Source: Enterococcus phage nattely
DNA length: 64,000 nt
Sequence record: MT119360.1
Strand: one strand, 5' to 3'
The position numbers were made by a program, and so were the translations under genes. The notes below the pieces were generated by a model that saw only the letters and a list, made by a program, of their open reading frames with translations, did no database searches and was not told where the DNA came from. Positions 8,954 to 57,957 of the stretch are shown in pieces (position 1 is the first letter of the stretch; each line of letters starts with the position of its first letter).

Positions 8954-9469
8954 ATGAATTTAGTTATTGAGGGTCCTAAAGCAAGTGGAAAAAGCACAAT
9001 TTCTCACCACTTTATTGAAAAATATTTAACGACATATGACCATATGAGCTCCGATAGCGATAACTCATTAAAAGGACATTTAAATTTATTAAAAGGCAAA
9101 AAAGGTGAATCATTAAATCATGTAATAGATCGTTTTTCAGTTGGGGAAATGATTTATCCTAATTTATATGGCCGTGAAGGAAAATTAAATTTAGATGAGT
9201 TTAATGTCACAATGAGTTCAGAAAACACATTATACGTTATTCTTTATTCTTCGTCTGATCAATTATTATTTGATCGAATTGAATGGAGAGGAAGAAACAC
9301 TGATGATGAAGATCATGATTTAGTGTCAAAATCAAATTTTGCATTTAAAATGATTGGTGAATCATTGAAATATCGTGAAAATGTATTATTATTTGATGTT
9401 GCAAAAGTAGGATTAAAAGAAATTATTAAAATAATTGAAGATAAATTGGAGGAGTTAAACAGATGTTAA
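8954..9469 (+). CDS. P-loop deoxynucleoside/deoxynucleotide kinase
   Basis: Walker A IEGPKASGKST; DRFSVGE resembles the dNK ERS/DR motif; ATG at 8954 with GGAGGT RBS. Confidence 0.5.
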   Translation: MNLVIEGPKASGKSTISHHFIEKYLTTYDHMSSDSDNSLKGHLNLLKGKKGESLNHVIDRFSVGEMIYPNLYGREGKLNLDEFNVTMSSENTLYVILYSSSDQLLFDRIEWRGRNTDDEDHDLVSKSNFAFKMIGESLKYRENVLLFDVAKVGLKEIIKIIEDKLEELNRC

Positions 9470-10308
9470 AATTTAAAAATGTAAATGATGCATGGATTCA
9501 TTTGGCAAAAAATGTCGTTTATAAAGGTGATGTTGTTGGAAATACAAAAGAATTAACAAATGTATCATTCCAAATTGAAAATCCATTAGATAACATTGTA
9601 AAAAGCCGTCACAATTTTTCATTAACATATTATTTAGGTGAAACTGTATGGTATGGTGCTGGTAAAGACGATGTTGAATTTATTAGTAAATTTGGCCGTA
9701 TTTGGAATCATTTAACAGATAATGGAATTTATAACAATAGTGCTTATGGTTATATCTTAAAAAATAAGCATGGTTTTGACCAAATCGAAAAAGCAATTGA
9801 ATTATTACGTGGAGATCAATATAGCCGACGAGCAGTGTTAAATATTAATATTCCACGGCGTGATGTTATTGAAACAAAAGATGAAATGTGCACAATTGCA
9901 TTACAGTTTTTAATTCGCGATGGAAAATTAAATATGACTGGAATTATGCGTTCAAATGATTTATGGACTGGTACTCCATATGATATTTTTTATTTCACAA
10001 CATTACAACGATATGTTGCATATAAATTAAATATTGATATGGGAACATATACGCATTTTGCAACTTCTTTACATTGTTATTTACGTGATGAAGAAAAATT
10101 AATTAAATCTTTTGAAAATGATGCAAATAATATTTATGCTGGTATCGATATTAATGGAATGCGTTTATTATTACAAGCTGAAGAATTATATTATACAACA
10201 CGTAAAGAAGAAAATGCAAAATTAGAATTAGTTAAATTATGTAAAGAACGTAATATTATTAAAGGAAAAGAAGTTGAAAAAACTATTGAAAAACTATCTG
10301 CTATTTAG
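9463..10308 (+). CDS. thymidylate-synthase-fold pyrimidine hydroxymethylase, best match to T4 gp42 dCMP hydroxymethylase
   Basis: SRRAVLNI / EMCTIALQFLIRDGKLN / MRSND block aligns to T4 gp42 DSRRGIMIY / FMCTNTVQYLIRDKKIN / MRSND; Asp in TPYDIF aligns with gp42 Asp179, where ThyA has Asn177. Confidence 0.7.
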   Translation: MLKFKNVNDAWIHLAKNVVYKGDVVGNTKELTNVSFQIENPLDNIVKSRHNFSLTYYLGETVWYGAGKDDVEFISKFGRIWNHLTDNGIYNNSAYGYILKNKHGFDQIEKAIELLRGDQYSRRAVLNINIPRRDVIETKDEMCTIALQFLIRDGKLNMTGIMRSNDLWTGTPYDIFYFTTLQRYVAYKLNIDMGTYTHFATSLHCYLRDEEKLIKSFENDANNIYAGIDINGMRLLLQAEELYYTTRKEENAKLELVKLCKERNIIKGKEVEKTIEKLSAI

Positions 10309-10762: not shown

Positions 10763-11821
10763 ATGGAAATTTTATTATTGAATGTCGCAAATAACATTAC
10801 GGATTTTCGAACAGTATCAAGTGGGGAAACAGTTTATCTAAAACAAATGTTAGAACAGTTAGGCCATGGAGTTACAATTGCTTCAAATAAGAATGGTGAA
10901 TATGCGGTTGCATTTGAGGAAATTGAGGATATTAACAATTTTGACAAAGTAGTTGTTTTACCTGCTTCACTGAACTTTTTCGGTGGTGTAGAAAACCCGA
11001 CAATTATTAAAAATTATAAATTATTAGCAAAATATAATGGAACTATTAATATTTTGCAAACTGACGCACGTTTGCCATTTAAGCAGTTGTGGCCAGCAAT
11101 TGAGAAGCGGGGATGGGGATATAAAAAAGAAGAAGTTTGGATTAATGCCCCAATTAAAGTAATTGCACAATCAAAAAATTTAGATGAAGTTAAAACACAA
11201 TATGAAAAAGAAATTTTCAATAACATTGAGTTTACACATTTTCCAATTGAGCGTTATGCTGGCATTGTGGCGCTAATGAATCCAATTGATGAAGTCGAAG
11301 AAAAAGAACATGATTTAGTTTATTATGGTTCATTCCGTGGAGGCAATCGTGCTGCTAAAATGGCAGAATTTTTATGTGGAAACATTGTAGAAAAATTAGA
11401 TGTCCACGTATTTGGAACAATTCGAGAAAAACAATTAGCTAAAAGTAGCGATGGTCCATTTCCTTCGTTTGGTAAAAAGATGAAAATGAATGAAATTAGA
11501 CAAGAGGTTAGCAAAAGTTTCTCAACTTTAATTATTGGTGAAAAATTTTATAATAATGCAATGTTGACAGTGAGGGTTTGGGAAACATTAAGTAGCGACG
11601 CAGTAGTTCTCATTGACAACGATTTTGACTCTTACCATAATTTATTTCCTAATTCGCCATGGCGGTATGTTGAAAAAGAAGAAGATCTTATCGAAGTAGT
11701 AAAATCTCTTAAAGATGATGAAAATAAGAGAAAATTAGCGATTCAAGAGCAAAAAGAAGTGTTAGAAAAAATGATTGATTCTTCTCAATGGTTAAGAGAT
11801 TTTGAAAATATTTTAGCTTAA
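10763..11821 (+). CDS. bgt: DNA beta-glucosyltransferase (T4 BGT homolog, GT-B fold)
   Basis: full-length collinear similarity to T4 beta-glucosyltransferase: MEILLLNVANNITDFRTVSSGETVYL vs MKIAIINMGNNVINFKTVPSSETIYL, NFFGG, TDARLPFKQLWP vs TDIRLPFSQSWP, YGSFRGGNRAAKMAEFL vs YGGSFRSGQRESKMVEFL, LRVWETLSSDAVVLIDNDFD vs LRVWETMASDAVMLIDEEFD; 352 aa vs 351 aa. Confidence 0.85.
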   Translation: MEILLLNVANNITDFRTVSSGETVYLKQMLEQLGHGVTIASNKNGEYAVAFEEIEDINNFDKVVVLPASLNFFGGVENPTIIKNYKLLAKYNGTINILQTDARLPFKQLWPAIEKRGWGYKKEEVWINAPIKVIAQSKNLDEVKTQYEKEIFNNIEFTHFPIERYAGIVALMNPIDEVEEKEHDLVYYGSFRGGNRAAKMAEFLCGNIVEKLDVHVFGTIREKQLAKSSDGPFPSFGKKMKMNEIRQEVSKSFSTLIIGEKFYNNAMLTVRVWETLSSDAVVLIDNDFDSYHNLFPNSPWRYVEKEEDLIEVVKSLKDDENKRKLAIQEQKEVLEKMIDSSQWLRDFENILA

Positions 11822-11892: not shown

Positions 11893-12417
11893 ATGACGGT
11901 TCAGTTTAAAGCGAAAGGACATGAAGATAACATTATTCACTTATATTCAGATGGTGGTTGTCGGTCAACTGCTAAAAAAGGTGAAACTATAAAAGAAACA
12001 GATAAAAGTGCTTATGCATTCTTCTTAAAACAAGGTGGAAATGAAAAATTAGATGGGCAAGCAAGTTATGGTAAAACAAATAATAATCAAGAAATTATGG
12101 GATTATTAATGGGCTTACGCGCTATTAAACGCCCAGAATTTCCAGTTGTTGCATATTTAGATTCAGCTTATGTTGTTAACTGTTTACAAGCTGGCTGGTG
12201 GAAGAAGTGGAAAGCTAATGGATGGACGAAAAAAGGTGGATTAGCAAATGCTAAAGAATGGAAAGAATTAATTGAAGAATTAGAACGTTTTCCATTTTTT
12301 AGAATTGAAAAAGTTAAAGGACACAGTGGCTTTGCAGATTATAATGATTTAGTTGATAAACACTTAAATAAATTAATGGATGAATTACCTGAAATTGGAA
12401 AGGGAAATGTTTTATGA
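11893..12417 (+). CDS. rnh: ribonuclease H (RNase HI-like)
   Basis: YSDGGC N-terminal motif and C-terminal GHSGFADYNDLVDKH; 174 aa. Confidence 0.75.
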   Translation: MTVQFKAKGHEDNIIHLYSDGGCRSTAKKGETIKETDKSAYAFFLKQGGNEKLDGQASYGKTNNNQEIMGLLMGLRAIKRPEFPVVAYLDSAYVVNCLQAGWWKKWKANGWTKKGGLANAKEWKELIEELERFPFFRIEKVKGHSGFADYNDLVDKHLNKLMDELPEIGKGNVL

Positions 12418-13376
12418 TATATTATGGAGAGCCATATTTTGAACTATTTTCATATGAGGCGACTGATAAAGCAAGAAATGACACTTGTAAAATATTAAAC
12501 TCCATGGGGTATTCACCTTTAAAATTATCTTGTTTTTCAGACGTGAACATTGAGAAAGCTGATGAAGAATTAGCTAACATTGAGGAAAATGACATAATTC
12601 TCTTACAATATCCAACTTACAGTGGAGCAGATTATGAAAAGAGATTAATTGAAATTTCTCATAAGAAAAAAGCAAAAATCTGTGCAATTGTTCACGACTT
12701 AGAATCAATAAGATTCTATGGAAATGATAGTGACATTGAGATTTTGAATGGTTTCGATATTATATCTCTTCCCTCCATGGAGATGTATAAAAAACTCTTA
12801 AAACAAGGACTAAAAACAAAAGTAAAGATACAGTTAATTTGGGATTTTCTCGCCATGGATAATCAACAATGGTATGATACAAATTCGGACATTGTCTTTG
12901 CTGGAAATTTAACAATGGAAAAGAGTAAATGGATAATGGATGTAGATTTTCCTATGTTGGTGTATGGCGACAATATAAATAATTTAATTTTTAATGATGA
13001 TGTAAAATATTGTGGTAAAAAGAATGATTTGGAATTAGTAAAAGAAATTGGTGGACAAATTGGATTATTATGGGAAGAAGGATTATATAAAGATTATTTA
13101 AAATATAATTTATCGTTTAAGCCTTCTTTATATCTTGCAGCAAATTGTCCGATTATTGTTCCAGAAAAAACCCATATTGGAAATATTGTAAAAACATACA
13201 AAATAGGCGTAACTGTTAAAGATATTAAAAGACAAACAATGTTGGATGCTGTTATTAAATTAAAAGATAATTTAAACTTTTATCAAGAACGTGTTTCAAC
13301 ATTTGGAGAAACAATTAGAAATGGGCAAAATATGAAAACGTTAGTTGAAAGTATGGTGAGAGAAATTGAAAATTGA
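12414..13376 (+). CDS. putative GT-B glycosyltransferase (C-terminal GT4-like nucleotide-sugar binding region)
   Basis: DIVFAGNLTMEKSKW and LYLAANCPIIVPEKTHIGNIV resemble GT-B donor-binding motifs; start overlaps the rnh stop (ATGA). Confidence 0.4.
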   Translation: MIYYGEPYFELFSYEATDKARNDTCKILNSMGYSPLKLSCFSDVNIEKADEELANIEENDIILLQYPTYSGADYEKRLIEISHKKKAKICAIVHDLESIRFYGNDSDIEILNGFDIISLPSMEMYKKLLKQGLKTKVKIQLIWDFLAMDNQQWYDTNSDIVFAGNLTMEKSKWIMDVDFPMLVYGDNINNLIFNDDVKYCGKKNDLELVKEIGGQIGLLWEEGLYKDYLKYNLSFKPSLYLAANCPIIVPEKTHIGNIVKTYKIGVTVKDIKRQTMLDAVIKLKDNLNFYQERVSTFGETIRNGQNMKTLVESMVREIEN

Positions 13377-32506: not shown

Positions 32507-32667
32507 ATGGATAAAAATATCGAACCAAAAAGAGAAGTATTAGAAAATGGCGACATCAAAGTAAATGTTGGTGATAATCAAATTTTAGTTACTCATGTTT
32601 CCGATGAAATTCCTGTTGATCAAATTGTGACAACTCAAACGACTAAAAATCATAATAGTGTTAATTA
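32507..32667 (+). CDS. small hypothetical protein
   Basis: ATG with AGGAAGAATGGAG RBS; 53 aa. Confidence 0.35.
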
Positions 32668-32733
32668 GAAGAAAAATAGTGTATAATAATAATATAGCCT
32701 TTGGGCTAACAAATATATTTGGAGAGTGATATC

Positions 32734-32922
32734 ATGGTTCAAGTAGCAAAAGTAGCATATACTGGTGAAGAACAAGATTTACCATTAGATGTAACGGAGA
32801 AAAATTTATTCGCCGGCGCTGTAACAAAATCAACAGTTAAAGAAGCTATTGATGAAGCAGCAGCTTTGGATAAAAAAGAATTACACCCAACGACAACAAC
32901 TACGACGACAGTTGGTGGTTAA
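32734..32922 (+). CDS. small protein ending in poly-Thr-VGG (same tail motif as the tail tube and capsid extension)
   Basis: ...KKELHPTTTTTTTVGG stop; GGAGAG RBS before ATG 32734 (track starts at TTG 32719); followed by the terminator ggaccgaagtcc plus T-run at about 32930. Confidence 0.55.
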   Translation: MVQVAKVAYTGEEQDLPLDVTEKNLFAGAVTKSTVKEAIDEAAALDKKELHPTTTTTTTVGG

Positions 32923-33076
32923 TTTAAAAGATAGGACTTCGGTCCTATTTTTTTTACATTAATATTACTAAAATTACATTGGTGAAATACTGTTTACTTC
33001 TATTAGTTAACATGATATAATATACCTATAATCAATTAATGATTATAAAAAAATATAGAAAAGAGAGTGAATTATT

Positions 33077-33784
33077 TTGCTAAAAGGAACTATCACGAAA
33101 GGTACAATTTTATTATTAGCTACTGTTGGTTTATCCGGATTCGCATACCAATCGAACCAGGAGAATATTAAAGAACAACAGGAGAAGCAGCAAAAACTTG
33201 AAAAGGAATTCTTCGAATATCAGGCAAAACAAGATAAGAAAATGATCATTCGCAATCAAAAGCAAAAAGCTCAATTGGCGAAAATGTCTGTTGATTTTAA
33301 AAAGAAAATTGCAGAAGAAAAGAAAAAAATTGCCGAACAAAAACAAGCAGAATACGAAGCGACTTTAACTAGACAAGCTGAAGAAAAGCGGAAACAAGAA
33401 GAAGAATTTGCGGCTTGGCAAGCAGAAATTGCTCATCAAGAAAAAATTAAAAAAGAACAAGAAGCAGCAGCTCAAGCAGCTCAAATTGCACAACAAGAAC
33501 AACAAGTTCAACAACAGGTTCAACAAACACAAATTCAGCAACAACAAGAACAAGCTCCTGCACAATCGAGTGATGCAAAAAGTCAAATTGCTATGATTGA
33601 AAGCACGAATAATTACAATGCGACTAATGGAAAATATATTGGTAAATATCAACTAGATGCAGCGTATTTAAATGGAGATCATTCTCCGGCAAATCAAGAA
33701 GCGACAGCAGACCGTTACGTGGCGGAACGTTATGGATCATGGGAAGCAGCCCTGGCATTCCATCAAGCAAATGGTTGGTACTAA
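33077..33784 (+). CDS. secreted or membrane-anchored IsaA/SceD-like transglycosylase-domain protein with Q/E/K-rich coiled-coil spacer
   Basis: TTG start; N-terminal signal/TM GTILLLATVGLSGFA; C-terminal NYNATNGKYIGKYQLDAAYLNG...GSWEAALAFHQANGWY matches the transglycosylase-like GKYQF...W...GW motif. Confidence 0.55.
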   Translation: MLKGTITKGTILLLATVGLSGFAYQSNQENIKEQQEKQQKLEKEFFEYQAKQDKKMIIRNQKQKAQLAKMSVDFKKKIAEEKKKIAEQKQAEYEATLTRQAEEKRKQEEEFAAWQAEIAHQEKIKKEQEAAAQAAQIAQQEQQVQQQVQQTQIQQQQEQAPAQSSDAKSQIAMIESTNNYNATNGKYIGKYQLDAAYLNGDHSPANQEATADRYVAERYGSWEAALAFHQANGWY

Positions 33785-37172: not shown

Positions 37173-37216
37173 AAAAAATAGGAGCCAATCGGTTAAGATT
37201 GACTCCTATTTTTATT
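37171..37216. terminator. bidirectional rho-independent terminator between the convergent early and late blocks
   Basis: aggagccaatcggttaagattgactcct hairpin flanked by an A-run upstream and a T-run downstream. Confidence 0.65.
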
Positions 37217-38192
37217 ATATCCCAAATGCTTCAAAGAGAATTTCTTCACTTCTGTCCATTAGGTAAGATTCAGTAGTTGATACATCCTCATGATGAGCGA
37301 TTAATTTTAATACTTTTAAATCTAATTGGTCTTTGCCTAATTCTTTTAACACATGATGAGTTCCGTTAGAATAATTATCTAATGATGAATGGCGGAAACA
37401 GTGTGGATTAATATCTACAACTTCTCCAGTTTTCAATTCTAAAACTTTTCTGAAATATAGACAAAAATTATATAATGATTCATATGATCTTGCTCTAATA
37501 TTTTCGCCTTTTCCAGCAACCCATAAAGAGTCAATATTATCATTTCCGCGTTGATCAAACCATAATTTTGCTATTTCTCTAGTGCGATCAAAATATAAAA
37601 GTTGGAATTTTTTACCACGTTTACCAATAACTTCATTAGTCATTTTCGATTCTAAGAAATTTTGTTTTTTAACTTGTAGAATTTCATTACGACGAGCAGC
37701 ACTATCATATGATAAAGATAAATATAAAGCCATTTCATATTTTTCTTCTTCTAATAAATGTTCTAAAATAATATCAATTTGCTCATCAGTTAGAAAAACA
37801 ATATCTCTAACTTTTTCACCTTGAATTCCTTTAATTGCACGCATAACATTTTTATCATAATCATATTCATCTTCATCATCTTCAGCAAAAGCTAATAAAT
37901 TTCGAATTGAACTTTGAAAACGATTAATTCTAGCTGCGCTCGTGCCCATTTCTTGCATTGATAAGAAAAATGTTCGAAACATGCGTTTCTTAAGGTCTAA
38001 TATTGATTTATTTCCTGCATTTTGAGCTATCCAACAGAAAAAGCCTTTAATGTCGGCAGTATATTGGTAAATAGTTTTTTCAGCTCGACCTTTACTTTTA
38101 AGTTCTAAAATATAATCTTCTAATAACATTTTGTTTTCCGCATTAACTTCTTCCCATATTTTTTCATCAAATAAATTATTGCGTTTTGCCAT
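37215..38192 (-). CDS. tyrosine recombinase (XerC/D-like integrase-family)
   Basis: C-terminal catalytic region HCFRHSS...LIAHHEDVSTTESYL with the R..H..R/H..Y arrangement; 325 aa. Confidence 0.7.
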   Translation of the reverse strand: MAKRNNLFDEKIWEEVNAENKMLLEDYILELKSKGRAEKTIYQYTADIKGFFCWIAQNAGNKSILDLKKRMFRTFFLSMQEMGTSAARINRFQSSIRNLLAFAEDDEDEYDYDKNVMRAIKGIQGEKVRDIVFLTDEQIDIILEHLLEEEKYEMALYLSLSYDSAARRNEILQVKKQNFLESKMTNEVIGKRGKKFQLLYFDRTREIAKLWFDQRGNDNIDSLWVAGKGENIRARSYESLYNFCLYFRKVLELKTGEVVDINPHCFRHSSLDNYSNGTHHVLKELGKDQLDLKVLKLIAHHEDVSTTESYLMDRSEEILFEAFGI

Positions 38193-52043: not shown

Positions 52044-52685
52044 TTAACCACCAATTGTAGTGGTAGTTGTTGTCGTAGTTGCTTTAGTGGTTGTTGTAGT
52101 TGTCACAGGATCAGTTGTAGTTGCTCCGTAAACTTTCTCGAACCATGCTTTAATAACTTCTTTATCAGCACCTGGTGCATCCTCGTTAACTGAAGCTCTC
52201 CAATCACCATTGAACACAGTTGGTAAAAATGTACCAGTGATAGTTGTAGTTTGGAATGTGATAGAATCTTCCTTAGTTTGGTAAGAATCTTCACCAACAC
52301 CAAATGAACCTTTGTATAATACTACATATTTGTAAGTTCCATTTGATTTTAAAGAACGAAACGCTAATGCAACACGTGGCGCAACTTTGTTTACGTTATC
52401 ATGAACAACGCCTTTTTCGTCAATTTCGATACCCATTAAACGAGCAACGATTTCGTCCTTAATGTCTGCTGTTTCTAATTCAACTTCAATTGAGCTAATT
52501 GTTTGATTAGAAATTAAAGCAATATCGTCCGCATAGAATGCGTCATCAGATGTTGACGGTGAAATTGAAGCACTAACAGCAGGAGCGATCTTAAACGGTG
52601 CTCCATATGCTAAATTCCCTTTTTCGTCATTTTTTAATTCGAATGCATATAAGTCACTCAAACCAATACGTACTGTATCTTCCAT
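52044..52685 (-). CDS. major tail (tube) protein with C-terminal poly-Thr tail ending in IGG
   Basis: 213 aa in the tail-tube position; C-terminus ...GATTTDPVTTTTTTKATTTTTTTTIGG stop. Confidence 0.65.
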   Translation of the reverse strand: MEDTVRIGLSDLYAFELKNDEKGNLAYGAPFKIAPAVSASISPSTSDDAFYADDIALISNQTISSIEVELETADIKDEIVARLMGIEIDEKGVVHDNVNKVAPRVALAFRSLKSNGTYKYVVLYKGSFGVGEDSYQTKEDSITFQTTTITGTFLPTVFNGDWRASVNEDAPGADKEVIKAWFEKVYGATTTDPVTTTTTTKATTTTTTTTIGG

Positions 52686-54453: not shown

Positions 54454-55341
54454 TTATTTTTTAACTTTTTTAATCGCTTGGACGTACTTATATGAGCAAA
54501 AATCTTTAGAAATATGTGAAAAATCATCAAAAAATGGCGTATTTTTAACATATTTTCCTTTAAAAAATAGCTCTTTTCTGTCCTCAGTGACTCCTGCGTT
54601 ATGAAAAATCTTATATTTTTCCCAATTTTCGATTGGATCTGTTGCCCAATTGAAGATAAAATCATCAGAAGTTAACGGTTTATAGTTAAATAGAACCATA
54701 TTCCAGCACTGAGACCACATTTCAGCGGTCCAAGTTTGTAAATTTGTATCAATTGTTGCAAAATAACGCCAGAGTGTATTAGAATCGTGATAAACTTTTT
54801 CCCAGAACTCTTTTTTTGGCTTATTTACTAAAACTTGTGCTCCTAGGTGCAGTCCTAGGTGTTCGTTCAACTGATCTTCTGATATTCCTATAATGTCTAA
54901 CATTTTATTTGCAATCTGAGGACCATTTTCGCAACCTTTTATATAATCTAAAGAAAGATAACCAGAACAATCTGAACCGATCCATTCATTATCTTTTAAT
55001 TGAGGAATATTTGGTATTTCTCTGAAGATAACGTCAGAATCAATATAAAGAAATTGTTCTTTTTCCATTTCTGGATTCTCTTCTAAAAATTTCCACCATA
55101 AATATGGTCGAATAGAAGGGATATATCCTTTATATTCTCTATTATCTTCATATCGATAAATAGAAATGTGAGGATATTTTTGTTTTAACCTTTCAGAAAT
55201 TGAAGGGTCAAAACTAGCAAATAATACATAAATATCTTTAATATTATGCTCTAATAAATTTGTGATTGCAACTTCTAATTCCCATTCGAAACGAACTATT
55301 TCTGGTTGGGCAAATAATACTTTCATTTTTCTAGTTCTCAC
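54454..55341 (-). CDS. GT-A fold glycosyltransferase (DxD motif) inside the structural module
   Basis: 295 aa; YIDSDVIF DxD motif after an N-terminal Rossmann-like region. Confidence 0.55.
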   Translation of the reverse strand: MRTRKMKVLFAQPEIVRFEWELEVAITNLLEHNIKDIYVLFASFDPSISERLKQKYPHISIYRYEDNREYKGYIPSIRPYLWWKFLEENPEMEKEQFLYIDSDVIFREIPNIPQLKDNEWIGSDCSGYLSLDYIKGCENGPQIANKMLDIIGISEDQLNEHLGLHLGAQVLVNKPKKEFWEKVYHDSNTLWRYFATIDTNLQTWTAEMWSQCWNMVLFNYKPLTSDDFIFNWATDPIENWEKYKIFHNAGVTEDRKELFFKGKYVKNTPFFDDFSHISKDFCSYKYVQAIKKVKK

Positions 55342-55449: not shown

Positions 55450-55589
55450 CTACCCGCCGGGGGTGACGGTGGTAGTTGTTGTAGTCGTTGGTTTAACCGT
55501 TGTCGTCGTCGTAGTTGTTGAAGTCGACGTCGTTGTTGTGGTTGTCGGTTTGACAGTAGTTGTCGTTGTTGTAGTAGGCTGAGGTGTTA
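55450..55589 (-). CDS. putative -1 frameshift C-terminal extension of the major capsid protein (poly-Thr ending in PGG)
   Basis: the -1 frame after capsid stop TAA (55587-55589) encodes VTPQPTTTTTTVKPTTTTTTSTSTTTTTTVKPTTTTTTTVTPGG with stop at 55450-55452; that frame has no start codon and opens 9 codons before the capsid stop; slippery A-AAG at the stop. Confidence 0.45.
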
Positions 55590-56789
55590 CTTTGCTGTTG
55601 CCACTACTAAAGCGTTAGGATTGTAAACTTCTCCATCCATGTAAGTGTCTAAGATAGATAATTGTCCACCAGCTAAAGCTTGTGTTGTATCTTGTGTTAC
55701 GTTAATCAAGTTCATACCTTTTTTGATCAACATACCATAACCAGCTTGGAAGTTACCAAATACAATTTTATCTGCATTTTCGCCAGTTAAAACATCAGAT
55801 ACGTGTACTGGGCATCCAAATAGAGAATAGCCAGGTTTACCGTCAACTAATCCACGGAAGATTAAGAATGTTCCGTCACCGTCTTTTAATTGCATAACTT
55901 TGTTGAACATTGGACGGCTCATTACCCACATAGAACCTTCTAAATATCCTGGGTTTAAAGTACCATAAATGTTCAATAAGTCTGGCACGTCGATGGCTTT
56001 AGCGACATCAAGAGTTAAAACATTTTTATCGCCAATAACTGGACGGAATGCTTCGTCTTCGTTTTCGCCATCTTTAGGTCCAACTAAGATTCCACGTTCA
56101 ATTGTTTTAGCAACAGAACGAGCTAAGCGACCTTGAGCATAACTAACAATATCAACACCAGAATCGTTGATCAATTGTTGAGTTAATTGAATTGCTGCAC
56201 CAACACGTTTTTGGTTAAGTGTTACTGCTTTCAATTTAGGTTGTAATTTGTTTGCGTCTACAGTTTCACCGATGAAACCTTCGTCAAAGTTACCGTCTTC
56301 ACGAGCGATTTTCAAATTACCAGTTACAGATGTGAATTTACGAGCTGCTTCGAACACAGGTGAAGTTTCGCCTAATAATTCAACAATTTCATTGTGAATT
56401 TGTGTAGGTACTAAAAATTCTCCTAATGGATTTGCGTTGTTCGCAGTTGTATTTTCACTATTTGAGTAAGTAATGTCACGCAATTCTTCCCCTTCGCGAC
56501 GACGTAAAAATTGTTCCATGCCGCGTAATTCGACTTCTTTTGTAATTTCTTTTTCCATCTTTGTTTCTCCTCCGATTGTTTCGACATCTGCATCAGCTAA
56601 TGAACGAACTTCTTTAATTTGTTTGATAGACGCATCTAAATCTGCGACTTCGCTTTTAATTTCTGAAATACGACTTAATTCACTTTCGTCAAAAGCACGA
56701 GTTTCTGCTTCAACTTTATCAGCAACTTCGCTCATTTCTTGAACTAATGCGTTGCGTTTTTCCAACATTGCTTTTAAATTAATTTCCAT
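55587..56789 (-). CDS. major capsid protein (HK97 fold) with N-terminal coiled-coil delta/scaffold-like domain
   Basis: 400 aa directly after the prohead protease gene; N-terminal coiled coil. Confidence 0.75.
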   Translation of the reverse strand: MEINLKAMLEKRNALVQEMSEVADKVEAETRAFDESELSRISEIKSEVADLDASIKQIKEVRSLADADVETIGGETKMEKEITKEVELRGMEQFLRRREGEELRDITYSNSENTTANNANPLGEFLVPTQIHNEIVELLGETSPVFEAARKFTSVTGNLKIAREDGNFDEGFIGETVDANKLQPKLKAVTLNQKRVGAAIQLTQQLINDSGVDIVSYAQGRLARSVAKTIERGILVGPKDGENEDEAFRPVIGDKNVLTLDVAKAIDVPDLLNIYGTLNPGYLEGSMWVMSRPMFNKVMQLKDGDGTFLIFRGLVDGKPGYSLFGCPVHVSDVLTGENADKIVFGNFQAGYGMLIKKGMNLINVTQDTTQALAGGQLSILDTYMDGEVYNPNALVVATAK

Positions 56790-57957
56790 TCTCTGGAACC
56801 TCCATAATTTTATTATTTTCTAACCAAGCTCTAACTTCTGCTTGTACATCAGGCTTTTTCGTGGTTGTTGTCGTTGTTTCTGGTTCAGCTGCTGTTTCCG
56901 CTTTACCTTCTTCAACTTTCGTTTCGGCAACTGGTGTTTCTTCCGCTTTTTGTTCAGTTTCGTCAACACGAGTTTCTTCACTCGGTTCTTCAACTTTAGC
57001 CTCAGCTTTAGGCTCACCATTTTCGTCCTCAACAACGGCTTTTGTACCGTCTTCAGTTTTTTCAACTTTAGCTTTTTCTTCAGTAACAGGTTCTTCAACC
57101 TTTTCTTCAGTTACTTTTTCTTCAACAGTTGGTGTTGGTTCAGTTGGTTGGGCTGGAGTTGCAGCAGCTGCTGTAGGGTCCATTGGTGGAACTTGTGCAC
57201 TTGCAACTTGTGAAACTTGTTCCATTACCTGTTTCGCCATTTCCAATCCATCAAATGCGGACTTATCTACAATTTCTTGTAATAATTTATTTGTGTCTGC
57301 TTGATTCATTGCTAAAGTTGAAATAGCATCATACAACATTTTTGGTGTTACTTCCATATTGTCTGTATTCAAACCATTTCCTCCTATAAGAGCTCTAAAC
57401 TCCAGATCATTCGGAATTTCAACGTCAGCTACTTCCATACCGCGTGCCTCCAATAAAGTAGTTGGATATGCGGGAGTTTTTAGTGCTGAAACTTCAAATA
57501 GTTCAATTTCACTAATAGTTCGAAGTGGCATTCCGTCTGCAGCTAAAGACCAATCTTCATTTAATACTTTCATACCAAAAGAAAGACCTTTAATAATTCC
57601 ATCTTTTACTAATACATATAAGTCTCGTCCGTAACTTGTTGGAGACACAGTTGCTTCAAAATAAAGACCAACTTCGTCTTCTTCCAATTTTAACGAGCCA
57701 TTTGCAGTAGATGCTAAAATCTTTTTAGTATCATGATCGGCAAGTAAATCGATACTTTCTTTCAAGCGTTTTGCTTTTGCAATTGCATTTCTGAAAGTTC
57801 CTGGAGCAATTACTTCTCTCCATTTTTTCTTACCTTCTTTGCCAAGGATGTGACTTGATGCGTCAGTTGCTACATATCCTTGCAATTTCATTTCTTTCGA
57901 CTCTTCATCAACATCATTGATGTTCAAATCAAGAGCACGAACTTCAATTCCATCCAC
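56779..57957 (-). CDS. prohead protease (HK97 S78-type) fused to E/K/T-rich scaffold-like C-terminus
   Basis: N-terminal protease domain with GYVATDASSH...FGMKVLNEDW...EVSALKTPAYP; C-terminal low-complexity acidic region with a TTTTTT run. Confidence 0.65.
   Translation of the reverse strand: MDGIEVRALDLNINDVDEESKEMKLQGYVATDASSHILGKEGKKKWREVIAPGTFRNAIAKAKRLKESIDLLADHDTKKILASTANGSLKLEEDEVGLYFEATVSPTSYGRDLYVLVKDGIIKGLSFGMKVLNEDWSLAADGMPLRTISEIELFEVSALKTPAYPTTLLEARGMEVADVEIPNDLEFRALIGGNGLNTDNMEVTPKMLYDAISTLAMNQADTNKLLQEIVDKSAFDGLEMAKQVMEQVSQVASAQVPPMDPTAAAATPAQPTEPTPTVEEKVTEEKVEEPVTEEKAKVEKTEDGTKAVVEDENGEPKAEAKVEEPSEETRVDETEQKAEETPVAETKVEEGKAETAAEPETTTTTTKKPDVQAEVRAWLENNKIMEVPENGN

What the first reader, a model, noticed from the sequence alone, without database searches (positions are those of the whole stretch)
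32734..32922. Orphan early-region small protein with the same poly-Thr-VGG tail
A 62-aa protein (...KKELHPTTTTTTTVGG) lies after the topoisomerase genes, about 20 kb from the structural genes, and carries the identical terminal motif. It could be a decoration protein, a competitive substrate or decoy for the structural-module glycosyltransferase, or a carrier. Three unrelated proteins sharing Thr(n)-hydrophobic-GG points to a dedicated recognition system.
Basis: seen in the sequence. Interest (0 to 1): 0.6.

Follow-up and report, generated by a model that had tools for sequence, protein, structure and literature searches.

The report
Small phage protein with poly-threonine glyco-tag
A real, heavily expressed 62-residue protein of an Enterococcus phage carries the same C-terminal poly-threonine tail as the phage's capsid and tail-tube proteins, and that tail always accompanies a phage sugar-transferase gene, so the protein is probably a third target of a virion-sugar-coating system not yet described in phages of Gram-positive gut and dairy bacteria.

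Summary
The ORF is real: 32734..32922 (+), 62 aa, with its own promoter-like site, RBS and terminator. It is conserved in all ten database records of Andrewesvirinae Enterococcus phages.

It evolves as a protein. dN/dS is 0.27, and the Pro-Thr7 codons show 5 synonymous and 0 non-synonymous changes.

Published VPE25 data show the ortholog (orf_87, SCO93467.1) is the 4th most abundant phage transcript at 20 min. It gives 31-46 spectral counts at 40 min.

The terminal GG is not conserved. Orthologs end AAGV, AQG or VGQ; only the Thr run followed by 2-4 residues that include a Gly is kept.

The 295-aa gene at 54454..55341 models as a retaining-type GT-A glycosyltransferase with an invariant DxD. 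In 80 of 80 viral loci carrying a homolog, the neighbouring capsid and/or tail-tube gene ends in poly-Thr plus 1-6 residues. Two phages without the gene have no such tails.

The protein is therefore best read as a third client of a poly-Thr-tag O-glycosylation system. This is inferred; no glycan has been shown.

It was not detected in input virions (0/0/0 counts, against 47-117 for the capsid protein). That argues against an abundant decoration protein, and its role remains open.

Verdict: new variant of a known kind.

The parts
32677..32690 (+). Promoter-like site TAGTGTATAATAAT (TATAAT at 32682..32687 preceded by TG). It is identical in all six close relatives.
   Evidence: The related motif TAATGTATAATAAA occurs four times elsewhere on the + strand. 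Function is inferred, not shown.
32695..32708 (+). 5-bp hairpin TAGCC-TTTG-GGCTA between the promoter and the RBS. It may stabilise the 5' end of the transcript or act as an operator.
   Evidence: In the VPE25 group the only change is in the loop (TTTT); the stem is unchanged. Function is not tested.
32721..32726 (+). Ribosome-binding site GGAGAG, 7 nt upstream of the ATG.
   Evidence: read directly from the sequence. It supports the ATG at 32734 over the upstream TTG at 32719.
32734..32922 (+). Coding sequence of the 62-aa protein, stop codon included. Residues 1-25 are the most conserved (MVQV..VA...EQ..PL.V...NL). Residues 32-49 are a predicted helix. The C-terminus is P52-T7-VGG.
   Evidence: dN/dS is 0.27 against VPE25. 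The ortholog SCO93467.1 is detected as RNA and protein.
32890..32919 (+). Poly-Thr tag: Thr53-Thr59 (32890..32910) followed by Val-Gly-Gly (32911..32919). This is the predicted O-glycosylation acceptor.
   Evidence: The Thr codons are mixed (ACG/ACA/ACT). Against VPE25 the P+T7 stretch shows 5 synonymous and 0 non-synonymous differences.
32931..32956 (+). Intrinsic terminator: stem ATAGGAC / GTCCTAT, loop TTCG, then a run of T ending at 32956.
   Evidence: The stem is invariant in six phages. Together with the promoter it makes the gene a monocistronic unit.
54454..55341 (-). Predicted retaining-type GT-A glycosyltransferase (PHROG 4417, no Pfam family), the presumed enzyme acting on the poly-Thr tags.
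   Evidence: pLDDT 95.8. Best structural matches are WbbM, LgtC, UGGT, GT6 enzymes and glycogenin. D101 and D103 are invariant.
55587..56789 (-). Major capsid protein gene (HK97 type), ending ...ATAK-stop with the codons GCA AAG TAA.
   Evidence: Pfam Phage_capsid, 9e-42.
55450..55614 (-). -1-frame extension ORF overlapping the end of the capsid gene. It would add VTPQP-T7-VKP-T6-STS-T7-VKP-T7-VTPGG. The likely slip site is A_AAG at 55590..55593, directly before the stop codon.
   Evidence: The -1 ORF stays open and Thr-rich in VPE25, vipetofem, EfaS_140 and Planchet. Planchet has the canonical heptamer C_CCA_AAA there. Frameshifting itself is inferred.
52044..52685 (-). Major tail (tube) protein with an in-frame C-terminal tag ...TTTDPVTTTTTTKATTTTTTTTIGG (tag at about 52047..52121).
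   Evidence: Phage_TTP_1; phrog_88.

Best explanation
The ORF encodes a genuine, abundant protein made in the middle-to-late phase of infection. Its C-terminal Pro-Thr7-xxx tail is the same portable tag that this phage, and hundreds of other phages of Firmicutes, place on the C-termini of the major capsid and tail-tube proteins. That tag always accompanies a phage-encoded GT-A glycosyltransferase (PHROG 4417).

The most likely mechanism is that the transferase O-glycosylates the threonine run of all three proteins in the infected cell, which makes the 62-aa protein a third client of the system. Its conserved N-terminal 25 residues are predicted to be disordered when the protein is alone. They most likely dock the glycosylated tail onto a partner.

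The only available proteomic data argue that the partner is not a high-copy site on the mature virion. The protein is more likely a non-virion or low-copy accessory: an assembly-phase factor, a tag-bearing competitor, or a released glycoprotein.

Shown: the gene and its tail, conservation and purifying selection, RNA and protein expression of the ortholog, the GT-A fold, and the association between the transferase and the tail. Inferred: that the tail is glycosylated, that this transferase does it, and what the glycoprotein is for.
For: - The gene is real and selected as a protein: (dN/dS 0.27; P+T7 shows 5 synonymous and 0 non-synonymous changes).
- The family is confined to Andrewesvirinae Enterococcus phages, all of which carry the transferase and the tagged tail-tube and capsid genes.
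- In the complete VPE25 genome the only C-terminal poly-Thr tails are on the small protein, the capsid -1 extension and the tail-tube protein.
- The transferase has a GT-A fold with an invariant DxD.
- In 80 of 80 viral loci with a transferase homolog, an ORF ending in Thr5-9 plus 1-6 residues lies immediately upstream of it and/or about 2.3 kb downstream. These occur on at least five unrelated capsid and tail-tube C-terminal contexts, and there are almost no other tailed ORFs in those 20-kb loci.
- The transferase-less phages phiFL3A and phiFL4A have no Thr-run ORFs, while phiFL1A, which has the transferase, has two.
- Other phages carrying the transferase also have extra clients: Lactococcus phage 1706 orf3 and Planchet PLANC_26.
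- The ending of the small protein's tail follows that of the tail-tube protein in each lineage: VGG/IGG, AAGV/AAGK, STVGQ/STTRQ. Within-phage concordance of endings is a general trend: 18 of 43 loci against a permuted mean of 5.5.
- Expression of the VPE25 ortholog. The z-score profile matches the capsid and tail-tube genes (PMC7064774 Table S2A). TPM is 13,320 / 25,490 / 84,036 / 17,034 at 0/10/20/40 min, 4th highest at 20 min, while the neighbouring topoisomerase genes are at 280-540 (PMC11100838). PSMs are 0,0,0 / 7,14,5 / 16,13,46 / 33,32,31,46.
- Precedent: mycobacteriophages glycosylate capsid and tail-tube subunits with their own transferases (citing Freeman et al. 2023).
Against: - No glycan has been observed on any of these proteins. 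The link between transferase and tail is correlative.
- Poly-Thr C-terminal tails also occur in viral contigs without this transferase family. Only 7 of 120 randomly drawn Thr8-coding loci had it within the stored flank.
- The structure model of the small protein is poor (pLDDT 53, four-sequence alignment), so the 'docking peptide' idea is weak.
- The transcript is already 1.3% of phage TPM at 0 min and its promoter looks like the phage's early promoters. It is not a pure late gene.
- The virion argument rests on spectral counts from whole infected-cell pellets at '0 min', not on purified virions.
- The phage encodes other glycosyltransferases (a T4 beta-glucosyltransferase homolog) that could be involved instead.
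Confidence: 0.55

Rival explanations
1. It is a virion decoration or accessory protein. The N-terminal peptide binds the capsid or tail surface and displays an extra glycosylated Thr tail, which increases glycan density because only frameshifted capsid subunits carry a tag.
For: It carries the same tag as the two surface-exposed structural proteins. Its expression peaks with the structural genes at a comparable transcript level. The conserved N-terminus is disordered alone, as expected for a segment that folds on binding. Small decoration proteins are known, for example the 64-aa SPP1 gp12 (my own knowledge). Planchet PLANC_26, encoded beside the tail-fibre genes, also carries a tag.
Against: It was not detected at 0 min in three replicates, where input-virion proteins were seen: capsid 47/117/75, tail tube 31/30/37, tape measure 5/4/7, portal 2/3/2 PSMs. 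Under equal PSM per residue, P(all zero) is 4e-6 for 180 copies per virion, 0.016 for 60 and 0.44 for 12. It is also encoded 19 kb from the head and tail module. The test is indirect, and low-copy presence is not excluded.
Confidence: 0.2
2. It is a soluble tag-bearing decoy or regulator that never enters the virion. It would compete for the transferase and so tune how heavily the capsid and tail are glycosylated. Alternatively it would saturate a host factor, such as a protease or a defence sensor, that recognises the poly-Thr tail of the tail-tube protein.
For: It is abundant in cells but absent from input virions. Its tail ending mimics the tail-tube ending in each lineage. Its abundance (NSAF-like 0.57) resembles that of non-virion assembly factors: protease 0.64, tail chaperone 0.54. 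The transferase itself is scarce (about 10 PSMs), so competition is plausible.
Against: There is no precedent and no direct evidence. A competitor for one's own modification enzyme is an odd design. Most phages carrying the transferase (temperate phages, Staphylococcus Sextaecvirus SA2) have no such protein. No host sensor of such tails is known.
Confidence: 0.2
3. The Thr7 tail is not a glycosylation site. It would be a flexible hydrophilic linker or a low-complexity remnant, spread between genes by recombination, and the small protein would have an unrelated function.
For: At the DNA level the tail ends of the small gene and the tail-tube gene are nearly identical (ACA GTT GGT GGT TAA against ACA ATT GGT GGT TAA), which is compatible with gene conversion. 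Poly-Thr runs occur without this transferase elsewhere. The prohead protease has an internal Thr6 run.
Against: The Thr run is held by purifying selection with scrambled synonymous codons. It is kept from Vipetofemvirus to Denvervirus while the middle of the protein diverges. The transferase-tail co-occurrence is 80 of 80 across unrelated structural proteins. A linker at the extreme C-terminus links nothing.
Confidence: 0.12
4. It is a ubiquitin-like or ThiS/MoaD-like small modifier, or a RiPP-type precursor, whose C-terminal Gly-Gly is the reactive or processed end.
For: It is 62 aa and ends in GG in this phage. A weak phmmer match links transferase residues 233-279 to ubiquitin (E 0.33 for mono-ubiquitin). 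A 9183 annotation mentions PqqD homology for the transferase homolog.
Against: GG is absent from most orthologs, which end AAGV, AQG or VGQ. No beta-grasp is predicted; the model is a disordered N-terminus plus one helix. No E1-like, protease or RRE gene is adjacent. The ubiquitin match is at chance level, and the transferase models confidently as a GT-A enzyme.
Confidence: 0.02

Closest known systems
Virion glycosylation of mycobacteriophages (Che8, Corndog, Myrna; Freeman et al. 2023, Cell Host Microbe 31:1216, as summarised in PMC12363180 and PMC11256854)
   Same: Phage-encoded glycosyltransferases modify the major capsid and tail-tube subunits in the infected cell, giving a sugar-coated virion. 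Here too the transferase is phage-encoded, and the tagged proteins are the capsid and tail-tube proteins.
   Different: The host phylum differs (Firmicutes, not Actinobacteria). The system has a single GT-A enzyme of an unannotated family (PHROG 4417, no Pfam) embedded between the capsid and tail genes. The acceptor is a short, recognisable C-terminal poly-Thr tag. In this phage subfamily the capsid tag is reached by a -1 frameshift. There is a third, small, non-structural-module client, which to my knowledge has not been reported for the mycobacteriophage systems. Glycosylation is not demonstrated here.
Small capsid decoration proteins (SPP1 gp12, lambda gpD, T4 Soc) - from my own knowledge
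   Same: They are small, made late in large amounts, and add a surface feature to the virion.
   Different: Those are encoded in the head module and are stoichiometric virion components. This protein is encoded among replication genes and was not seen in input virions.
C-terminally extended capsid variants made by programmed frameshifting (T7 gene 10A/10B; Lactobacillus phage A2 gp5A/5B at C_CCA_AAA; B. subtilis cdd at CGA_AAG) - from my own knowledge
   Same: This applies to the capsid tag, not to the 62-aa protein. A -1 slip on a Lys codon next to the stop codon adds a C-terminal extension to a fraction of the subunits. Planchet has the same heptamer as phage A2.
   Different: Here the extension is a poly-Thr tag array linked to a transferase. 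Frameshifting has not been shown experimentally.
Ser/Thr-rich O-glycosylated regions of bacterial surface proteins (SRRP adhesins with GtfA/GtfB; C-terminal Ser glycosylation of Pseudomonas 1244 pilin) and mucin-type domains - from my own knowledge
   Same: Runs of hydroxy-amino acids, or a C-terminal residue, serve as acceptors for a dedicated cytoplasmic transferase.
   Different: The enzyme families differ: GtfA/B are GT-B enzymes and TfpO is an oligosaccharyltransferase. The repeats are much longer, and the substrates are cellular rather than viral.

Membership tests
Phage virion-protein glycosylation system (transferase plus tagged structural proteins) | A phage-encoded glycosyltransferase is present | tested here: met
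   AF2 model with pLDDT 95.8. Foldseek gives probability 1.0 and TM about 0.5 to GT-A retaining transferases. The alignment of 73 homologs has an invariant D101-x-D103. Enzyme activity is not tested.
Phage virion-protein glycosylation system (transferase plus tagged structural proteins) | The capsid and tail-tube subunits carry the acceptor region | tested here: met
   The tail-tube protein has an in-frame tail and the capsid a -1-frame tail. The same arrangement is seen in 80 of 80 loci with a transferase homolog.
Phage virion-protein glycosylation system (transferase plus tagged structural proteins) | The 62-aa protein carries the same acceptor region | tested here: met
   P-T7-VGG here. The Thr run is conserved in all orthologs with 5 synonymous and 0 non-synonymous changes.
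Phage virion-protein glycosylation system (transferase plus tagged structural proteins) | A glycan is covalently attached to the acceptor | not testable with these tools
   This needs mass spectrometry or glycostaining. The published VPE25 proteomics searched unmodified, annotated proteins only.
Capsid or tail decoration protein | High-level late expression | tested here: met
   For the VPE25 ortholog, TPM is 84,036 at 20 min (rank 4) and there are 31-46 PSMs at 40 min.
Capsid or tail decoration protein | Present in mature virions at many copies | tested here: not met
   0/0/0 PSMs at 0 min, where the input-virion capsid, tail-tube, tape-measure and portal proteins are detected. P(all zero) is at most 0.016 for 60 or more copies. 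The test is indirect, using cell pellets rather than purified virions.
Capsid or tail decoration protein | Encoded in the structural module | tested here: not met
   The gene lies after the topoisomerase genes, on the opposite strand and 19 kb from the tail-tube gene.
Ubiquitin-like / ThiS-MoaD small modifier | Conserved C-terminal Gly-Gly | tested here: not met
   Orthologs end AAGV, AQG or VGQ.
Ubiquitin-like / ThiS-MoaD small modifier | Beta-grasp fold | tested here: inconclusive
   The model shows a disordered N-terminus plus one helix, but pLDDT is only 53.
RiPP precursor (for example a glycocin) | Leader plus core peptide with an adjacent dedicated modification enzyme or RRE | tested here: not met
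   The neighbours are a 53-aa ORF and a membrane-anchored transglycosylase-like protein. The transferase is 21 kb away and its main partners are structural proteins. The protein has no Cys residues.

The most novel reading that the evidence does not exclude
The C-terminal poly-Thr run is a portable, autonomous 'glyco-tag' read by a single small GT-A enzyme. Phages of Firmicutes use it to sugar-coat their capsids and tails. Andrewesvirinae phages additionally make an abundant soluble tag-bearing protein that never enters the virion. That protein would act as a decoy or regulator, either tuning the transferase or saturating a host factor that recognises the tagged tail-tube protein. This would be a new kind of phage regulatory or counter-defence protein, and a ready-made two-component protein-glycosylation tool.
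Probability: 0.2. Interest if true: 0.8.

Novelty: new variant of a known kind. Interest (0 to 1): 0.62.

Why it matters
Phage-encoded glycosylation of virions is so far documented for mycobacteriophages, where it shields particles from antibodies. The evidence here suggests a comparable but mechanistically simpler system: one GT-A enzyme and a short C-terminal poly-Thr tag.

The system is widespread in phages of Enterococcus, Lactococcus, Lactobacillus, Staphylococcus, Listeria and Clostridium. At least 591 viral contigs and 75 isolate genomes carry the transferase. They include the E. faecalis model and therapy-candidate phage VPE25 and dairy phages.

If the system is real, it bears on phage immunogenicity, stability in the gut, adsorption, and the interpretation of virion proteomics, because tagged peptides and the frameshifted capsid form would be missed.

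The 62-aa protein is the most puzzling part. It is a highly expressed client that seems not to be in the virion. It is easy to test, since VPE25 can be manipulated genetically, and the tag-plus-enzyme pair could serve as a minimal glyco-tagging tool.

Tried and rejected
- Homology of the small protein. Pfam, PHROGs and NCBIfam gave nothing. The word-seeded search and the exhaustive HMMER search of 1.84 billion representatives found only three close clusters. tblastn against phage records found only Andrewesvirinae. A PDB profile search gave only weak hits to designed pentapeptide-repeat proteins (E about 1e-3), judged compositional. There is no paralog in the window.
- Structure of the small protein. 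The AF2 model from four sequences had pLDDT 53, too poor for a fold search.
- Ubiquitin-like or GG-modifier idea. Rejected because GG is not conserved. The transferase's phmmer hits to ubiquitin are at chance level for single ubiquitin.
- The 'PqqD' and 'lpxB motif' annotations of transferase homologs (lpxB E 0.18). Not supported, because the fold is GT-A.
- Reverse association, from poly-Thr tail to transferase. A scan for Thr8-coding DNA in viral contigs was noisy. It found mostly internal runs and spurious ORFs, and only 7 of 120 loci held the transferase. The tail is therefore not exclusive to this transferase family.
- Context of the metagenomic relative P0003. Its contig is only 622 bp.
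- Literature. No paper in the held library describes poly-Thr tails or virion glycosylation in phages of Firmicutes. The Freeman 2023 paper is not held. No virion proteome was found for vB_EfaS_140 or Planchet.

Full report
**1. The observation**

The window is about 64 kb of an Enterococcus siphophage of the subfamily Andrewesvirinae. It is 95% identical to vB_EfaS_140 and about 90% identical to VPE25, VFW, vipetofem and vB_EfKM29.

An ATG ORF lies at 32734..32922 on the + strand. It encodes 62 residues, MVQVAKVAYTGEEQDLPLDVTEKNLFAGAVTKSTVKEAIDEAAALDKKELHPTTTTTTTVGG. The following signals surround it:
- a GGAGAG ribosome-binding site 7 nt upstream of the ATG;
- a TG-TATAAT promoter-like site at 32680..32687;
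- a 5-bp hairpin in the leader;
- a clean intrinsic terminator at 32931..32956.

All of these signals are invariant or nearly so in six phages. The gene sits directly after the two topoisomerase genes and about 19 kb from the tail-tube gene.

Two other products in the window end in a Thr run followed by GG. One is the major tail protein, 52044..52685 on the - strand, ending ...T6-KA-T8-IGG. The other is a -1-frame ORF, 55450..55614 on the - strand, which overlaps the end of the capsid gene and ends ...T7-VTPGG. A Thr7 run is expected 4e-5 times in a proteome of this size and composition.

**2. What part of the motif is conserved**

The small protein has orthologs in every Andrewesvirinae record: six Vipetofemvirus-like and four Denvervirus records. 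It also has two metagenomic clusters. No other homologs were found in an exhaustive HMMER scan of 1.84 billion representative proteins.

The tails of the small protein, by lineage, are:
- LHP-T7-VGG in this window, EfaS_140 and cluster P0001;
- ERP-T7-AAGV in the VPE25 group;
- LHP-T7-AQG in cluster P0003;
- LHP-T5-S-T-VGQ in Planchet, 9183 and TJE4.

The tail-tube tails of relatives end IGG, AAGK, TAGK or STTRQ. The capsid -1 tails end TPGG, ATPGE, VAEG or LAEG.

The terminal GG is thus a peculiarity of this lineage. The conserved feature is Pro, then a Thr run, then 2-4 residues that include a Gly.

Against VPE25 the first 49 codons give dN/dS of 0.27. The Pro-Thr7 stretch has five synonymous and no non-synonymous differences. 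The run is therefore selected as protein, not as a DNA repeat.

The N-terminal 25 residues are the most conserved part. AF2 predicts them to be disordered when the protein is alone, followed by one helix at residues 32-49. The model confidence is low (pLDDT 53).

**3. The enzyme**

The 295-aa product of 54454..55341 (- strand) has no Pfam or NCBIfam family and belongs to PHROG 4417, annotated 'unknown function'. It has more than 100 clusters of homologs. In an alignment of 73 of them, D101 and D103 (the motif DSD) are invariant.

The AF2 model is excellent (pLDDT 95.8). Foldseek matches it, with probability 1.0, to retaining GT-A glycosyltransferases: WbbM, LgtC (GT8), UGGT (GT24), alpha-1,3-GalT and the ABO transferases (GT6), and glycogenin. 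Activity is not tested.

**4. Co-occurrence of enzyme and tail**

A scan of IMG/VR with the transferase alignment found at least 591 relatives. The best 80 loci were kept, each with up to 10 kb of flank on either side.

In all 80 loci an ORF ending in Thr5-9 plus 1-6 residues lies immediately upstream of the transferase and/or about 2.3 kb downstream. These are the capsid and tail-tube positions. The endings include SHA, SHG, SHV, QA, QG, SK, KK, KKV and EG. The tails sit on at least five unrelated C-terminal contexts. Essentially no other tailed ORFs occur in these 20-kb loci.

Seventy-five isolate genomes carry the transferase. They include phiFL1 and phiFL2, Lactobacillus casei phages, Lactococcus bIL285 and 1706, Clostridium phiCTP1, Staphylococcus Sextaecvirus and Lactobacillus plantarum myoviruses.

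Whole-genome scans gave the following:
- phiFL1A, which has the transferase, has tails on the capsid and tail-tube proteins;
- phiFL3A and phiFL4A, which lack the transferase, have no Thr-run ORF at all;
- Staphylococcus phage SA2 has the tail on the tail-tube protein, next to which its transferase lies;
- Lactococcus phage 1706 has three tagged proteins: orf3, the protease-capsid fusion and the tail-tube protein.

Planchet has a fourth tagged protein, PLANC_26, beside its tail-fibre genes. Extra clients therefore exist in other phages.

Within a phage the residues after the Thr run tend to match between the capsid and tail-tube proteins: 18 of 43 non-redundant loci, against a permuted mean of 5.5 and a maximum of 12. 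These loci are not phylogenetically independent. The small protein follows the same trend relative to the tail-tube protein in each lineage.

The reverse relation is weaker. Among 120 viral loci drawn by a Thr8-coding pattern, most runs were internal, and only 7 loci had this transferase in the stored flank. Poly-Thr is not exclusive to this enzyme family.

**5. Expression of the VPE25 ortholog (orf_87, SCO93467.1)**

In the RNA-seq of Chatterjee et al. (PMC7064774, Table S2A) its z-scores at 10/20/40 min are -1.24, -1.21 / 0.31, 0.30 / 1.14, 0.71. This is the same profile as the capsid gene (orf_123) and the tail-tube gene (orf_117). It is unlike the adjacent topoisomerase gene.

In the re-analysis in PMC11100838 its TPM is 13,320 / 25,490 / 84,036 / 17,034 at 0/10/20/40 min. 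At 20 min it ranks fourth among phage transcripts. The three above it are the tail-tube gene (100,590), SCO93499 (98,842) and the capsid gene (90,555). Its neighbours are at 280-1,300.

The protein is detected by LC-MS/MS. PSMs are 0,0,0 at 0 min; 7,14,5 at 10 min; 16,13,46 at 20 min; and 33,32,31,46 at 40 min. Per residue, this is about the abundance of the prohead protease or the tail chaperone, and roughly 40% of the tail-tube protein.

**6. Is it in the virion?**

The '0 min' samples are cell pellets taken right after adding phage at a multiplicity of infection of 10. They contain input-virion proteins in roughly virion proportions: capsid 47/117/75, tail tube 31/30/37, tape measure 5/4/7 and portal 2/3/2 PSMs. 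The small protein gives 0/0/0.

Assuming equal PSM yield per residue and 535 capsid subunits per virion, the probability of three zeros is:
- 8e-17 for one copy per capsid subunit (535 copies);
- 4e-6 for 180 copies;
- 0.016 for 60 copies;
- 0.44 for 12 copies.

This argues against an abundant decoration protein. It does not exclude a low-copy component. The evidence is indirect, because the virions were not purified.

**7. Interpretation**

The best-supported reading is that the 62-aa protein is a third client of a poly-Thr-tag O-glycosylation system run by the GT-A enzyme. It is made in large amounts while virions are assembled.

The following are inferred, not shown:
- that the tails are glycosylated at all;
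- that this enzyme does it, rather than the phage's other transferases, for example the T4 beta-glucosyltransferase homolog at 10763..11821, which more likely modifies DNA;
- what the glycoprotein does.

Four rivals were weighed:
- a virion decoration protein, disfavoured by point 6;
- a soluble decoy or regulator, compatible with the data but without precedent;
- a tail with no glycosylation role, disfavoured by the selection on the run and by the 80 of 80 association;
- a GG-dependent modifier or RiPP precursor, rejected because GG is not conserved.

**8. Comparison with what is known**

Phage-encoded glycosylation of capsid and tail-tube subunits is established for mycobacteriophages Che8, Corndog and Myrna (Freeman et al. 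2023, as summarised in PMC12363180 and PMC11256854).

The present system resembles it in logic. It differs in four respects:
- the host phylum;
- the enzyme family;
- the short C-terminal poly-Thr tag, which on the capsid of this subfamily is reached by a -1 frameshift;
- a small client encoded outside the structural module.

I found no description of it in the held literature. Subscription journals are largely missing from that library.

My verdict is 'new variant of a known kind', with moderately high interest. That interest comes mainly from the breadth of the inferred system and from the unexplained, abundant and apparently non-virion client.

Noticed in passing
window 55450..55620 (- strand): The major capsid gene ends GCA AAG TAA. 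A conserved -1-frame ORF continues from there for about 45 residues of poly-Thr repeats. The -1 ORF is open and Thr-rich in VPE25, vipetofem, EfaS_140 and Planchet, and Planchet has the canonical slippery heptamer C_CCA_AAA at the same place. This is probably a programmed -1 frameshift that gives a minority of tagged capsid subunits. It is not annotated in any of the records; vipetofem even annotates a reverse-strand ORF there.
   Followed up: partly
window 54454..55341 (-); loci L013-L092: The PHROG 4417 protein of 'unknown function' is a confidently modelled GT-A glycosyltransferase. It is present in at least 591 viral contigs and 75 isolate phage genomes of Firmicutes. In all 80 loci examined it lies beside capsid and/or tail-tube genes that end in poly-Thr plus 1-6 residues.
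   Followed up: yes
window 9463..10308, 10763..11821, 12414..13376 (+): A thymidylate-synthase-like gene (possibly a pyrimidine hydroxymethylase), a strong T4 beta-glucosyltransferase homolog (Pfam 2e-61) and a further sugar-enzyme-like gene suggest that this phage has glucosylated hydroxymethyl-pyrimidine DNA.
   Followed up: partly
window 56779..57957 (-): The prohead protease/scaffold protein has an internal Thr6 run (…AEPETTTTTTKKP…) 26-31 residues from its C-terminus. Staphylococcus phage SA2's protease has even longer internal Thr runs. Whether these are also glycosylated or are just linkers is unknown.
   Followed up: no
window 32507..32668 (+): The 53-aa ORF just upstream has its own promoter-like site. 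Its VPE25 ortholog (SCO93466.1) reaches 12,828 TPM at 20 min with late kinetics, yet it has no row in the phage proteomics table.
   Followed up: partly
window 33077..33784 (+): The downstream gene encodes a protein with an N-terminal membrane anchor, a Gln/Glu/Lys-rich coiled region and a C-terminal transglycosylase-like ('aggregation promoting factor') domain. Its role (lysis accessory or superinfection exclusion) is unknown.
   Followed up: no
window 8264, 25717, 33853, 35864 (+): The 14-mer TAATGTATAATAAA occurs four times exactly on the + strand, mostly just upstream of small genes in the early region. It is probably the phage's early promoter -10 element. The small gene's TAGTGTATAATAAT is a close variant.
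   Followed up: partly
NC_010576.1 964..1368 (L096); OX422066.1 28069..28488 (L010): Lactococcus phage 1706 orf3 (annotated holin, ending …TTTTTTTVKEPE) and Planchet PLANC_26 (ending …TTTTTTTDVEPITTTTTLKGDE) are further poly-Thr-tailed proteins, other than capsid or tail-tube proteins, in phages that carry the transferase.
   Followed up: partly
L105 4640..7264; L200 10803..12711: Some unrelated viral contigs have two or three neighbouring ORFs that end exactly in runs of 7-17 Thr, with no PHROG 4417 transferase in the stored flank. They may represent an analogous tag system with a different enzyme.
   Followed up: no
window 54457..55341 (-), residues 233-279: phmmer against PDB sequences gives weak matches of this stretch of the transferase to ubiquitin (E 0.33 for mono-ubiquitin; lower E-values only for poly-ubiquitin chains). 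This was judged to be chance.
   Followed up: partly
window 37215..38192 (-): A tyrosine site-specific recombinase gene sits next to the endolysin gene in what is regarded as a strictly lytic phage group. Its VPE25 ortholog (SCO93485.1) is expressed at 10-35 PSMs.
   Followed up: no
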